From assembly GCF_013167455.1 (NCBI RefSeq), contig NZ_CP038328.1: 64,000 nt of DNA; one strand, written 5' to 3'. Shown here in pieces: positions 2 through 52,223 of the stretch. The position numbers were made by a program, and so were the translations under genes. The first letter of the stretch is position 1, and the number at the start of each line of letters is the position of its first letter. The notes under the pieces were generated by a model. That model did not search any database. It saw nothing but the letters and a program-made list of their open reading frames with translations, and was not told the DNA's origin. Source of the DNA: Escherichia coli O157:H7. Its GTDB lineage: Bacteria > Pseudomonadota > Gammaproteobacteria > Enterobacterales > Enterobacteriaceae.

Positions 2-763
2 GCTATCGTATTGATTGTGCGTTCGTTTATTTATGAACCGTTCCAGATTCCGTCAGGTTCGATGATGCCGACTCTGTTAATCGGTGATTTTATTCTGGTA
101 GAGAAGTTTGCTTATGGCATTAAAGATCCTATCTACCAGAAAACGCTGATCGAAACCGGTCATCCGAAACGCGGCGATATCGTGGTCTTTAAATATCCGG
201 AAGATCCAAAGCTTGATTATATCAAGCGCGCGGTGGGTTTACCGGGCGATAAAGTCACTTACGATCCGGTCTCAAAAGAGCTGACGATTCAACCGGGATG
301 CAGTTCCGGCCAGGCGTGTGAAAACGCGCTGCCGGTCACCTACTCAAACGTGGAACCGAGCGATTTCGTTCAGACCTTCTCACGCCGTAATGGTGGGGAA
401 GCGACCAGCGGATTCTTTGAAGTGCCGAAAAACGAAACCAAAGAAAATGGAATTCGTCTTTCCGAGCGTAAAGAGACACTGGGTGATGTGACGCACCGCA
501 TTCTGACAGTGCCGATTGCGCAGGATCAGGTGGGGATGTATTACCAGCAGCCAGGGCAACAACTGGCAACCTGGATTGTTCCTCCGGGACAATACTTCAT
601 GATGGGCGACAACCGCGACAACAGCGCGGACAGCCGTTACTGGGGCTTTGTGCCTGAAGCGAATCTGGTCGGTCGGGCAACGGCTATCTGGATGAGCTTC
701 GATAAGCAAGAAGGCGAATGGCCGACAGGTGTGCGCTTAAGTCGCATTGGCGGCATCCATTAA
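2..763 (+). CDS. lepB: Signal peptidase I, C-terminal part (5' end lies outside the window)
   Basis: Open frame from the window edge; catalytic-domain sequence recognised as LepB; followed by rnc-era as in the lepB-rnc-era operon. Confidence 0.9.
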   Translation, partial: AIVLIVRSFIYEPFQIPSGSMMPTLLIGDFILVEKFAYGIKDPIYQKTLIETGHPKRGDIVVFKYPEDPKLDYIKRAVGLPGDKVTYDPVSKELTIQPGCSSGQACENALPVTYSNVEPSDFVQTFSRRNGGEATSGFFEVPKNETKENGIRLSERKETLGDVTHRILTVPIAQDQVGMYYQQPGQQLATWIVPPGQYFMMGDNRDNSADSRYWGFVPEANLVGRATAIWMSFDKQEGEWPTGVRLSRIGGIH

Positions 764-776
764 TAGCTCATCTTCG

Positions 777-815
777 TTCACGTTGTCGCCGTTATGGCGA
801 CAACGTGAATTATTT
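777..815 (+). terminator. Hairpin after lepB (13-bp perfect inverted repeat TTCACGTTGTCGCC / GGCGACAACGTGAA, then a T-rich tail)
   Basis: Inverted repeat read directly in the sequence, immediately 3' of the lepB stop. Confidence 0.55.
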
Positions 816-904
816 ATGAGATAAATCTCCCGTGGCTAACGACATCCCCCGTCGTTGTGTATAGAATATTCCCCCGAAGTTTAAGGTTGGCACCTCCAGG
901 TTGC

Positions 905-1005
905 CACGGCACACGAAACAGCGTTGGTCCCCATATACCGCTAAACTGAAACTGCAGCGAAGCAGTTAGCAGAGCCATGTATATCAGGTCTGTTTCGTGT
1001 GCTGA
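905..1005 (+). promoter_or_regulatory. rnc leader stem-loop (rncO-like RNase III autoregulatory structure)
   Basis: Long-range inverted repeat GCACACGAAACAGC (about 909-922) with CTGTTTCGTGTGC (about 989-1002) in the rnc 5' UTR; RNase III is known to cleave its own leader. Confidence 0.55.
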
Positions 1006-2618
<1,613 letters not shown>

Positions 2619-4481: not shown

Positions 4482-4504
4482 AAATAATACCGTTCTCTTT
4501 ATAA

Positions 4505-4580
4505 AGTAAAACCCCCGAACTGGTAAGGAACGGGGGTTTTACTTTTTAACTTTAATTTTGTGCAGCACACGATTCCAACG
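4505..4580 (-). ncRNA. ohsC: Candidate OhsC antitoxin sRNA, divergent from shoB
   Basis: Minus-strand CATAAT -10 element at 4587-4592; the transcript would contain the 19-nt element at 4560-4578 and end at the 4508-4547 terminator; known shoB/ohsC layout. Confidence 0.45.
4508..4547. terminator. Bidirectional rho-independent terminator (AAAACCCCCG / CGGGGGTTTT with T-runs on both sides)
   Basis: Perfect 10-bp stem read in the sequence; serves acpS on + and the candidate ohsC transcript on -. Confidence 0.7.
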
Positions 4581-13776: not shown

Positions 13777-13960
13777 AGTGGCTCATTCACCGACTTATGT
13801 CAGCCCCTTCGGGACGTGCTACATAAAATTCGAATGACGCACAACAAGGTGCCTGCCGTCCAACTTCTGATATCAGCGTAGCTATATCAACCATCGGGCG
13901 AAACGTCGAGTTAGGCACCGCCTTATTCCATAACAAAGCCGGGTAATTCCCGGCTTTGTT
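13777..13960 (+). ncRNA. glmY: GlmY small RNA
   Basis: Sequence AGTGGCTCATTCACCGACTTATGTCAGCCCCTTCGGGACG... recognised as GlmY; ends in the hairpin AAAGCCGGG/CCCGGCTTT plus U-tract; about 184 nt. Confidence 0.85.
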
Positions 13961-43185: not shown

Positions 43186-43296
43186 TAAAAAGTATTCAGA
43201 ATCAGGCCGGGGCGTATCGCGCTCCGTAAACACGGTCGTACATCCAGCCGGTAGCCTGGTTCCTTGCATTGAGTGATGTACGGAGTTTATAGAGCA

Positions 43297-49895: not shown

Positions 49896-50672
49896 ATGTC
49901 CGAAACAAAAAATGAACTTGAAGACCTGCTGGAAAAAGCAGCAACCGAACCGGCGCACCGCCCGGCCTTTTTCCGTACTCTACTGGAATCCACCGTCTGG
50001 GTGCCTGGTACGGCGGCGCAGGGCGAGGCTGTGGTTGAAGATAGCGCGCTTGATTTACAGCACTGGGAAAAAGAAGACGGCACCAGCGTCATTCCTTTTT
50101 TTACCTCGTTAGAAGCACTTCAACAGGCGGTTGAAGACGAACAGGCATTTGTCGTAATGCCCGTTCGCACATTGTTTGAGATGACCCTTGGCGAAACGCT
50201 CTTCCTTAATGCCAAACTGCCGACCGGTAAAGAATTTATGCCGCGTGAAATCAGTTTGTTGATTGGTGAAGAGGGAAATCCGCTGAGCAGCCAGGAAATC
50301 CTGGAAGGCGGTGAATCGCTGATATTATCGGAAGTCGCAGAGCCGCCAGCACAAATGATTGATTCACTCACCACCTTATTTAAAACCATTAAGCCTGTGA
50401 AGCGTGCTTTTATTTGTTCAATTAAAGAGAACGAAGAGGCACAGCCTAATTTACTTATTGGCATTGAAGCCGATGGTGATATCGAAGAAATTATTCAGGT
50501 GGCGGGAAGTGTAGCGACCGATACATTACCTGGCGATGAACCAATCGATATTTGTCAGGTGAAAAAAGGGGAAAAAGGAATTAGCCACTTTATTACCGAA
50601 CATATTGCGCCATTCTATGAACGTCGCTGGGGTGGTTTTTTGCGTGACTTTAAACAGAATCGGATAATCTAA
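49896..50672 (+). CDS. sseB: SseB family protein
   Basis: 258-aa product from the internal ATG (MSETKNELEDLLEKA). Confidence 0.88.
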   Translation: MSETKNELEDLLEKAATEPAHRPAFFRTLLESTVWVPGTAAQGEAVVEDSALDLQHWEKEDGTSVIPFFTSLEALQQAVEDEQAFVVMPVRTLFEMTLGETLFLNAKLPTGKEFMPREISLLIGEEGNPLSSQEILEGGESLILSEVAEPPAQMIDSLTTLFKTIKPVKRAFICSIKENEEAQPNLLIGIEADGDIEEIIQVAGSVATDTLPGDEPIDICQVKKGEKGISHFITEHIAPFYERRWGGFLRDFKQNRII

Positions 50673-50675
50673 AAT

Positions 50676-50990
50676 ATGCCGCCCCAAAGGGCGGCATTCG
50701 GGCTTACCTGCTGCTCTGAAGGTTGTTAATCACCAGTAAATTGTCGCCGGAGAGACTCCGGTTATTATTTACCTCGGTTAACAGCGCACCAGAAACAATA
50801 AGTACGATACAGAAGCACCGTATCTTCATTGTGCGGTCCATGCGAAGACCGCATCACGACAGCACCACTGGCGATATTGCCGCGATAGCAAGCACTGTGG
50901 GGTGCCTGTATTTACGGTCATGGAACATTCTTTCCTAAAGCCAGCGCCCGTTTGCGAGACGGCGAAAAGGGCCATTAAGAATAATACTCT
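50676..50990 (-). ncRNA. ryfA: ryfA-like transcript (a short mRNA annotated as an sRNA); 5' end uncertain
   Basis: Minus-strand rho-independent terminator at 50676-50697 (ATGCCGCCC/GGGCGGCAT then a U-rich tail); position between sseB and sseA matches ryfA. Confidence 0.45.
50704..50829 (-). CDS. Candidate small hydrophobic protein inside the ryfA transcript (41 aa, MKIRCFCIVLIVSGALLTEVNNNRSLSGDNLLVINNLQSSR; TimP-like toxin candidate)
   Basis: ORF below the track cutoff, read by hand on the minus strand; stop lies 7 nt before the terminator hairpin; alternative in-frame start at 50841; no strong Shine-Dalgarno. Confidence 0.3.
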   Translation of the reverse strand: MKIRCFCIVLIVSGALLTEVNNNRSLSGDNLLVINNLQSSR

Positions 50991-51049: not shown

Positions 51050-51155
51050 TTCAACACTGTGGGGTGCCTGCGTTGCTCCGGCAACACAAGTCAACCTGCT
51101 GGAAAGGCCGCGAACCAGACCAGCAATAAAAAACCGCCAAATTCGGCGGTTTTTT
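51050..51155 (+). ncRNA. Candidate divergent antisense sRNA (TimR-like)
   Basis: Contains CACTGTGGGGTGCCTG (51056-51071), the same 16-mer found at 50894-50909; ends at the plus-strand terminator 51127-51155; weak TTGGCA-N17-GAGTAT promoter at 51021-51049. Confidence 0.25.
51127..51155. terminator. Bidirectional rho-independent terminator (AAAAACCGCC / GGCGGTTTTT)
   Basis: Hairpin flanked by A/T runs on both sides, directly 3' of sseA. Confidence 0.65.
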
Positions 51156-51171
51156 ATTGCCTGTAAAAAGC

Positions 51172-52017
51172 TTATTTCAATGGCTCAACCGGTAAATCTG
51201 CCCGCGCGCCCCATTCACTCCATGCGCCGTCGTACAGTTTCACGTTTGGCACATCCAGCGTCGCGAGTGCCAACAAAACCACGGCTGCTGTTACACCAGA
51301 GCCGCAGCTGACGATAATTGGTTTGTCATAGCTGACGCCGCGACCAAAAAATATCGCATCCAGTTCATCGGTCGTTTTTAGTTCGCCTTCGCGCACCAGT
51401 TCCGTCCACGGAACGTTCAATGCACCGGGAATATGTCCGCGACGTAAACCTGGGCGAGGTTCATCAACTTCTGCGTTAAAACGTGCAGCCGGGCGGGCAT
51501 CAATAATTTGCGCCGTATTTTCATGGCTTGCCAATAACACATCGGTTACTTTCACCACTGCTTCAGGATTAAACGCGGCGTTAAACTCTCCTTCCGGCAG
51601 CTCTACTGCACCTTCTTCTAACAACAGATCATCGCGCTGCCAGCCTGCAAGTCCACCCCCCAGAATCGACACTTTCTCTACACCAAAGGTGCGCAGCATC
51701 CACCATGCTCGTGGGGCTGAGAAAAGATTACCTTCGTCATAGACAATCAGGTGCTTATCCTGGTTAACGCCTAATTCACGCATCGCCACGGCGAACGTTT
51801 CCGGGCGCGGCAGCATGTGCGGAAGCGGGGAAGTGTGATCAGAAAGCGCTTCGATATCAAAAAACACTGCGCCGGGAATATGTCCATTCAGATACTCCTG
51901 AGCAACGTTACGATCTTCCTGTCCAGGCGACGCCATGCGGGCATCGATAATCTGAATTTCCGGGTCATCAATATGTTCGGCGAGCCAGTCGGCTCCTACA
52001 AACCATGTCGTGGACAT
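51172..52017 (-). CDS. sseA: 3-mercaptopyruvate sulfurtransferase
   Basis: 281-aa product from the internal ATG (MSTTWFVGADW); tandem rhodanese domains with the CGSGVTA active-site loop. Confidence 0.9.
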   Translation of the reverse strand: MSTTWFVGADWLAEHIDDPEIQIIDARMASPGQEDRNVAQEYLNGHIPGAVFFDIEALSDHTSPLPHMLPRPETFAVAMRELGVNQDKHLIVYDEGNLFSAPRAWWMLRTFGVEKVSILGGGLAGWQRDDLLLEEGAVELPEGEFNAAFNPEAVVKVTDVLLASHENTAQIIDARPAARFNAEVDEPRPGLRRGHIPGALNVPWTELVREGELKTTDELDAIFFGRGVSYDKPIIVSCGSGVTAAVVLLALATLDVPNVKLYDGAWSEWGARADLPVEPLK

Positions 52018-52223
52018 AGGCATCTCCATTTTTGCCGGGGTTAGGCTAAATTGTCGGATGTTTAGTGAAAAGCGACAAGCAAAAGAGGCTGATTTGGCTG
52101 TCTGAGCCACAATTCTCACTAAAATTCGGATTGTATGGGCGTGATACTGAATTACATAACGTAAATTCTCACGCATAATAATTATTCGACGTTGCTAACG
52201 GGCCATTGTGGCAGGGATGAAAA

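What the first reader, a model, noticed from the sequence alone, without database searches (positions are those of the whole stretch)
905..1005. Long-range stem in the rnc leader
A 13-14-nt inverted repeat with arms separated by about 65 nt lies in the rnc 5' UTR; RNase III is known to cleave its own leader. Separately, a 13-bp perfect hairpin (777-815) terminates lepB.
Basis: partly seen in the sequence, partly recalled or inferred. Interest (0 to 1): 0.2.

Follow-up and report, generated by a model that had tools for sequence, protein, structure and literature searches.

The report
Known rncO autoregulatory stem of rnc
The inverted repeat is the base of the long hairpin (stem-loop II of rncO) in the E. 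coli RNase III mRNA leader.

Summary
Arms 909-921 and 990-1002 are a perfect 13-nt inverted repeat, 68 nt apart. On the + strand RNA it extends to a 15-bp helix (907-921/990-1004) that closes a 98-nt irregular hairpin.

The window is E. coli lepB-rnc-era-recO-pdxJ. Region 876-1090 is a full-length match to Rfam RF00552 (rncO) at 258.7 bits, against a threshold of 43. The repeat is the basal helix of rncO stem-loop II.

Published work shows that RNase III cuts this hairpin in its own 5' UTR. The cut exposes the rnc-era mRNA to RNase E-dependent decay, which gives negative autoregulation.

In 99 distinct Enterobacterales leaders the helix is almost invariant, with compensatory changes at two pairs. 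The upper part of stem II is lineage-specific: 70 species have a short hairpin of 46-58 nt and 29 have a long one of 76-122 nt.

The lepB hairpin is also real: 14 perfect bp at 777-790/796-809, terminator-like, and kept in position in 97 of 103 species.

Verdict: already known, low interest.

The parts
11..763 (+). 3' part of lepB (signal peptidase I); the true start lies upstream of the window
   Evidence: ORF list; annotated as lepB in E. coli genomes
776..810 (+). lepB terminator-like hairpin: 14 perfect bp at 777-790/796-809, then a T-rich tail TATTTATG at 811-818
   Evidence: A strong hairpin (median -22.5 kcal/mol) sits just after the lepB stop in 97 of 103 species. The stem sequences differ but a common AAUUAUUU-like tail follows
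839..867 (+). rnc promoter-like site: -35 ACGACA at 839-844 and -10 TAGAAT at 862-867
   Evidence: Promoter scan. TAACGACA and TATAGAAT are conserved across genera in alignment A2. The position fits a transcription start near 876
876..1090 (+). rncO element, full-length Rfam RF00552 match, running from the 5' end of the rnc mRNA into the first 55 nt of the coding region
   Evidence: 258.7 bits against a gathering score of 43, model positions 1-214 of 214. The 5' UTR is given as 160 nt in PMC10037077, which places the transcription start at 1036-160 = 876
888..906 (+). rncO stem-loop I, a small 7-bp hairpin
   Evidence: Rfam consensus structure and MFE fold. Six of 7 pairs show double compensatory changes across 99 leaders
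907..1004 (+). rncO stem-loop II, a 98-nt irregular hairpin and the RNase III substrate
   Evidence: MFE -41.2 kcal/mol, z = -5.4; Rfam structure; literature
909..921 (+). 5' arm of the flagged perfect inverted repeat (basal helix of stem II)
   Evidence: near-invariant in 99 Enterobacterales leaders
990..1002 (+). 3' arm of the flagged perfect inverted repeat (basal helix of stem II)
   Evidence: Covariation at 920/991 (C-G 54, A-U 32, G-C 2) and at 908/1003 (G-U 67, A-U 18, U-A 5)
1036..1716 (+). rnc coding sequence (RNase III, 226 aa)
   Evidence: ORF list; annotated as rnc
1056..1075 (+). rncO stem-loop III, an 8-bp hairpin inside the rnc coding region
   Evidence: Rfam consensus structure aligned to the window
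1713..2618 (+). era, co-transcribed with rnc and co-regulated by leader cleavage; its start overlaps the rnc stop (ATGA)
   Evidence: ORF list; annotation; PMC8708148

Best explanation
The inverted repeat forms the 15-bp basal helix of stem-loop II of rncO, the post-transcriptional operator in the 160-nt 5' UTR of the E. coli rnc-era-recO mRNA.

The mechanism comes from the literature and was not tested here. While intact, the structured 5' end protects the message. RNase III, the product of the first gene, binds and cuts the long irregular hairpin. The cut removes the 5' structure and leaves a monophosphorylated, unstructured 5' end. RNase E then degrades the mRNA rapidly, which lowers the synthesis of RNase III and Era. 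When abundant substrates such as rRNA precursors titrate the enzyme, less leader is cut and expression rises.

Separately, the 14-bp hairpin at 777-809 most likely acts as the intrinsic terminator or 3'-end stabiliser of the lepA-lepB transcript. That would leave rnc to be transcribed from its own promoter at 839-867.
For: - Shown here: a perfect 13-nt repeat, far above chance, with 0.06 expected per window.
- Full-length Rfam rncO hit at 258.7 bits against a threshold of 43, on the + strand only; the reverse strand scores 22.7 bits, below threshold.
- The fold gives stem I at 888-906 and stem II at 907-1004, z = -5.4.
- The locus is present in 5425 of 5426 complete E. coli genomes, between lepB and rnc. 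It differs from K-12 at only 2 leader positions.
- In 99 distinct leaders from other Enterobacterales, 91.8% of cells are paired, against 36-41% when the partner column is slid.
- Compensatory changes occur at 920/991 and 908/1003. G-U pairs (908/1003, 924/987, 927/984) are only valid on the + strand RNA.
- All 12 genera tested pass the rncO gathering score, at 68-231 bits.
- From the literature: RNase III cleaves its own 5' UTR hairpin and RNase E-dependent decay follows (PMC3867540; PMC5371410; PMC10037077; PMC8708148; PMC3997798). These papers cite Bardwell 1989 and Matsunaga 1996.
Against: - Nothing contradicts the explanation.
- No cleavage data exist for this exact allele (C941/G974, where K-12 has G/A).
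- I could not retrieve the exact cut positions, because the primary papers and the supplementary tables are not held.
- Single-sequence folding does not tell the strands apart: the minus strand folds at -42.7 kcal/mol.
- RNAalifold on the gappy alignment recovered only 7 of the 15 basal pairs.
- About 10% of species carry a mismatch at single basal pairs, for example C-U at 920/991.
- For the lepB hairpin, the U-tract is interrupted (5 T in 8) and I found no experimental 3'-end data.
Confidence: 0.97

Rival explanations
1. The repeat is a chance inverted repeat with no function.
For: None beyond the fact that short inverted repeats do occur by chance.
Against: Only 0.06 such repeats are expected per 64 kb in shuffles. 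The fold has z = -5.4. Both arms are conserved, with compensatory changes, in 99 distinct leaders from many genera. The region matches a curated covariance model at 258.7 bits.
Confidence: 0.005
2. The repeat is a DNA-level palindrome, that is, an operator for a dimeric DNA-binding protein controlling rnc transcription, rather than an RNA structure.
For: The arm sequences are conserved beyond what pairing alone needs: 7 of the 20 lower stem II pairs scored (6 of the 15 basal-helix pairs) never vary. The minus strand folds equally well in a single sequence.
Against: The arm spacing varies from 16 to 92 nt between species, which does not fit a fixed dimer site. The site lies downstream of the transcription start. 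G-U pairs that would be C-A on the other strand or in DNA are maintained. The CM scores 258.7 bits on the + strand and 22.7 on the - strand. Reviews state that no transcriptional control is apparent (PMC3867540).
Confidence: 0.01
3. Stem II is a transcription attenuator or terminator that stops read-through from lepB or causes premature termination of rnc transcripts.
For: It is a very stable hairpin in a leader region.
Against: No U-tract follows it: GAAUUGUUGACG comes after 1004. The terminator scan finds only the 776-810 hairpin. The literature assigns regulation to mRNA stability.
Confidence: 0.01

Closest known systems
rncO (Rfam RF00552), the E. coli rnc leader post-transcriptional operator (Bardwell et al. 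1989; Matsunaga, Simons & Simons 1996)
   Same: This is that element: same locus, full-length CM match, same three stem-loops, and a sequence that differs from K-12 at 2 of 160 leader positions.
   Different: The only difference is an allele, C941/G974 here against G941/A974 in K-12. It shifts the register of a 3-bp helix in the upper stem and changes the predicted stability by only 0.3 kcal/mol.
RNase III site in the rpsO-pnp leader (pnp autoregulation)
   Same: RNase III cuts a hairpin in the 5' leader and this starts decay of the downstream message (PMC5371410; PMC8708148).
   Different: It is a different gene. The autoregulator there is PNPase acting after the RNase III cut, not RNase III itself. 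There is no sequence relationship.
rne 5' UTR hairpin (RNase E autoregulation)
   Same: A ribonuclease senses a stem-loop in its own 5' UTR and lowers its own mRNA level (PMC3997798).
   Different: The enzyme is RNase E, which recognises a stem-loop and cleaves single-stranded RNA. It does not cut a double-stranded helix.
Phage T7 R1.1-type RNase III processing signals
   Same: An irregular hairpin of about two helical turns with an internal loop serves as an RNase III substrate. The short enterobacterial form of stem II (15 bp, a 2x2 loop, then 4-5 bp) is of similar size.
   Different: T7 signals process polycistronic mRNAs and often stabilise the products. rncO cleavage destabilises the message.

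Membership tests
rncO (Rfam RF00552) | Covariance-model score at or above the curated gathering score (43 bits) | tested here: met
   258.7 bits, E = 6.5e-62, model positions 1-214 of 214, window 876-1090 on the + strand
rncO (Rfam RF00552) | Located in the 5' leader directly upstream of, and running into, the rnc (RNase III) coding sequence | tested here: met
   The rnc ATG is at 1036. The ORF encodes RNase III and the region is annotated rnc in 5425 E. coli genomes
rncO (Rfam RF00552) | Three-domain architecture: small stem-loop I, long irregular stem-loop II, stem-loop III in the coding region | tested here: met
   Stem I at 888-906, stem II at 907-1004, stem III at 1056-1075, from the CM alignment and the MFE fold. 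Pairing of stem I and basal stem II is supported in 99 leaders
rncO (Rfam RF00552) | Stem II is cleaved by RNase III | not testable with these tools
   Reported for K-12 in the literature, including in vivo primer extension on UTR nucleotides 1-129 (PMC10037077; PMC3867540). This allele differs at 2 upper-stem positions
rncO (Rfam RF00552) | Cleavage destabilises the rnc-era mRNA, giving negative autoregulation | not testable with these tools
   Literature only
Intrinsic (Rho-independent) terminator, for the lepB hairpin | G+C-rich hairpin just downstream of the stop codon | tested here: met
   Hairpin at 776-810, 14 perfect bp, -25.6 kcal/mol, starting 13 nt after the lepB stop. The position is conserved in 97 of 103 species although the sequences differ
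Intrinsic (Rho-independent) terminator, for the lepB hairpin | Uninterrupted U-tract directly 3' of the stem | tested here: inconclusive
   The tail is UAUUUAUG, 5 U in 8 and interrupted. It passes the simple scan. A similar AAUUAUUU tail follows in most species
Intrinsic (Rho-independent) terminator, for the lepB hairpin | Transcripts end there in vivo | not testable with these tools
   I found no 3'-end data in the held literature

The most novel reading that the evidence does not exclude
The conserved unit of rncO stem II across Enterobacterales may be only a roughly 46-52-nt hairpin: the flagged 15-bp basal helix, a 2x2 internal loop, a 4-5-bp helix and a small loop. On this reading the 50-75-nt upper extension seen in Escherichia, Salmonella, Citrobacter and Klebsiella/Raoultella is a lineage-specific insertion that is dispensable for autoregulation. 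The near-invariant sequence of the basal helix, and not only its pairing, would then reflect sequence-specific recognition. That could be RNase III reactivity boxes, or the RNase E entry site created after the cut. The evidence shows the long/short split and the sequence invariance. Whether cleavage and regulation work the same way in the short form is untested, and the split may already be implicit in the Rfam family.
Probability: 0.35. Interest if true: 0.25.

Novelty: already known. Interest (0 to 1): 0.08.

Why it matters
It matters mainly as a calibration point. A reader working from raw sequence recovered a classic, experimentally characterised regulatory RNA, the RNase III autoregulatory operator rncO, and placed it correctly. 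No new biology follows for E. coli.

The comparative by-product is that the flagged helix is the invariant core of the element, while the upper hairpin varies from absent to about 75 nt of extra sequence. This could guide the design of minimal substrates or cross-species tests of RNase III autoregulation.

Tried and rejected
- I tried to read the primary papers (Matsunaga 1996 PMC1369450; Bardwell 1989 PMC401487; Court 2013 PMC6311387; Hauk 2023). None is held.
- The Altuvia 2018 supplementary tables that list the rnc leader sites are not held. Gordon 2017 Table S1 has no entry in the rnc leader coordinates. The exact cut positions could therefore not be placed on the window.
- RNAalifold on the 99-sequence alignment recovered only 7 basal pairs, because the long and short forms make the alignment gappy. 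I relied instead on explicit pair counting with slide and shuffle controls.
- Folding the minus strand gives an equally stable hairpin, so single-sequence energy cannot assign the strand. Strand assignment rests on the CM score asymmetry, the G-U pairs and the gene context.
- The reverse-strand rncO hit (22.7 bits) and the mir-2001 hit on the lepB hairpin (20.1 bits against 74) are below threshold and are artefacts of hairpin symmetry.
- The mechanical ORFs overlapping the leader (857-949 on +, 814-1092 on -) were not pursued. The first starts upstream of the transcription start, and neither has any support.
- A literature search for the lepB terminator found nothing relevant.

Full report
**Observation.** The window begins inside lepB (ORF to 763). 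It continues with rnc (1036-1716), era (1713-2618), recO and pdxJ. The 361 bases around the finding are 100% identical to several E. coli chromosomes. They are present in 5425 of 5426 complete E. coli genomes, where they are annotated lepB and rnc. MG1655 has the same gene order.

The repeat finder reports exactly two inverted repeats in 740-1060:
- 909-921/990-1002: 13 nt, perfect, 68 nt apart.
- 777-790/796-809: 14 nt, perfect, with a 5-nt loop.

The whole window holds four perfect inverted repeats of at least 13 nt with a spacer of at most 100 nt. One hundred dinucleotide shuffles gave a mean of 0.06.

**Identity.** A scan against Rfam gives a full-length hit to RF00552 (rncO) at 876-1090 on the + strand. 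It scores 258.7 bits against a gathering score of 43, E = 6.5e-62, and covers model positions 1-214 of 214 (repeated). The reverse-strand hit (22.7 bits) is below threshold and reflects the symmetry of a long helix.

In the CM alignment and the MFE fold the leader has three elements:
- stem-loop I at 888-906;
- a 98-nt irregular stem-loop II at 907-1004;
- an 8-bp stem-loop III at 1056-1075, inside the coding region.

The flagged repeat is the core of the 15-bp basal helix of stem II (907-921/990-1004). Stem II alone folds at -41.2 kcal/mol, against -23.7 +/- 3.2 for shuffles (z = -5.4).

A sigma-70-like promoter (ACGACA at 839-844 and TAGAAT at 862-867) sits just upstream. PMC10037077 gives the rnc 5' UTR as nucleotides 1-160. 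That puts the transcription start at 876, which is also where the Rfam model begins.

**Mechanism (from the literature, not tested here).**
- PMC3867540 states that Ec-RNase III expression is controlled post-transcriptionally. [quoted passage not shown] RNase E recognises that end and the mRNA decays rapidly. Titration of the enzyme by rRNA precursors relieves the autoregulation.
- PMC5371410, PMC3997798 and PMC8708148 say the same, citing Bardwell et al. 1989 and Matsunaga et al. 1996.
- PMC10037077 used UTR nucleotides 1-129 (window 876-1004, that is stems I and II) as an in vivo RNase III reporter. It measured cleavage of the stem-loop by primer extension.

I could not retrieve the exact cut positions.

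**Comparative test.** One DNA-pattern scan of the species-representative genome collection, using the start of the rnc coding sequence, returned 120 loci, of which 117 are true rnc. I aligned 99 distinct leaders (A2).

Counting the pairs of stem I and lower stem II gave these results:
- 91.8% of cells are paired, against 36-41% when the 3' partner is slid by 1-3 columns. No shuffle out of 500 reached the observed value.
- Stem I has double compensatory changes in 6 of 7 pairs.
- The basal helix of stem II is almost invariant in sequence (7 of the 20 lower stem II pairs never vary, 6 of them in the 15-bp basal helix).
- Pair 920/991 switches between C-G (54), A-U (32) and G-C (2).
- Pair 908/1003 switches between G-U (67), A-U (18) and U-A (5).
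- The maintained G-U pairs are valid only on the + strand RNA. This argues against a DNA palindrome or a minus-strand RNA, which single-sequence folding cannot exclude.

Twelve genera, from Salmonella to Erwinia, Pantoea, Edwardsiella and Serratia, all pass the rncO gathering score at 68-231 bits.

RNAalifold on the gappy alignment recovers only 7 basal pairs.

**What varies.** The distance between the basal arms falls into two groups:
- 16-28 nt in 70 species. This gives a short stem II of 46-58 nt, mostly 46-52 nt: the 15-bp helix, a 2x2 internal loop, 4-5 bp and a loop.
- 46-92 nt in 29 species: Escherichia, Salmonella, Citrobacter and Klebsiella/Raoultella types.

Within E. coli, this window differs from K-12 at 941 (C for G) and 974 (G for A). 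In the fold these two positions face each other. C941-G974 pair in the window, while in K-12 a 3-bp helix shifts register, at a cost of only 0.3 kcal/mol.

Exact 66-mer counts in complete genomes are as follows:

| Allele (941, 974) | Genomes |
|---|---|
| C, G | 720 |
| G, A | 1947 |
| G, G | 1526 |
| C, A | 75 |

The non-pairing C,A combination is about five-fold rarer than independence predicts. Clonal sampling could produce the same pattern.

**lepB hairpin.** Hairpin 776-810 (-25.6 kcal/mol) starts 13 nt after the lepB stop and is followed by UAUUUAUG. It is the only terminator-like site in 700-1100. In 97 of 103 species a strong hairpin (median -22.5 kcal/mol) occupies the same position. 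The stem sequences are quite different but an AAUUAUUU-like tail follows. This conserved-structure, variable-sequence pattern supports a terminator or a 3'-end stabiliser. The U-tract is interrupted, and I found no experimental 3'-end data.

**Verdict.** The element is the already-characterised rncO operator. The novelty rating is 'already known' and interest is low. The only mildly new point is the long/short split of stem II around an invariant basal helix.

Noticed in passing
window 941 and 974 (upper part of rncO stem II): The window differs from K-12 MG1655 at two positions that face each other in the fold: C941-G974 here, G941/A974 with a one-base register shift in K-12. Exact 66-mer counts in complete E. 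coli genomes are C,G 720; G,A 1947; G,G 1526; C,A 75. The non-pairing combination is depleted, but clonal structure could explain this.
   Followed up: yes
window 922-989, compared with loci L002-L121: The upper part of rncO stem II is lineage-specific. The distance between the basal arms is 16-28 nt in 70 species (a short hairpin) and 46-92 nt in 29 species (Escherichia, Salmonella, Citrobacter, Klebsiella/Raoultella types). All forms still pass the Rfam rncO threshold.
   Followed up: yes
window 838-856: A 6-bp inverted repeat, AACGAC (838-843) and GTCGTT (851-856) with a 7-nt spacer, overlaps the -35 region of the rnc promoter. TAACGACA...GTCGTTG is conserved in most Enterobacteriaceae leaders in alignment A2, but the right arm is broken in a few species. 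It could be a protein site or simply promoter conservation.
   Followed up: partly
window 1713-1716: The rnc stop and the era start overlap (ATGA). This fits translational coupling and co-regulation of era by the leader cleavage.
   Followed up: no
window 51123-51160: A perfect 13-bp hairpin flanked by an A-run and a T-run (AATAAAAAACCGCCAAATTCGGCGGTTTTTTATTG). It looks like an ordinary bidirectional intrinsic terminator, lying just upstream of ryfA (50671-50975, minus strand) and just downstream of the stop of a minus-strand ORF at 51172-52176.
   Followed up: partly
window 4503-4579 (-), 13777-13924 (+), 43186-43295 (+), 50671-50975 (-): There are other Rfam matches above gathering score in the window: ohsC (the shoB antitoxin sRNA, which also contains a perfect 13-nt inverted repeat at 4503/4533), GlmY, the iscRS stability element, and ryfA. 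All are known E. coli elements.
   Followed up: no
loci L062, L016, L017, L026 (upstream of lepA-lepB in other genera): Rfam AsrC (antisense RNA of rseC mRNA, RF02746) matches at 151-323 bits in Raoultella, Shimwellia, Pantoea and Erwinia loci fetched for the rnc comparison. This reflects the conserved rseC-lepA neighbourhood.
   Followed up: no
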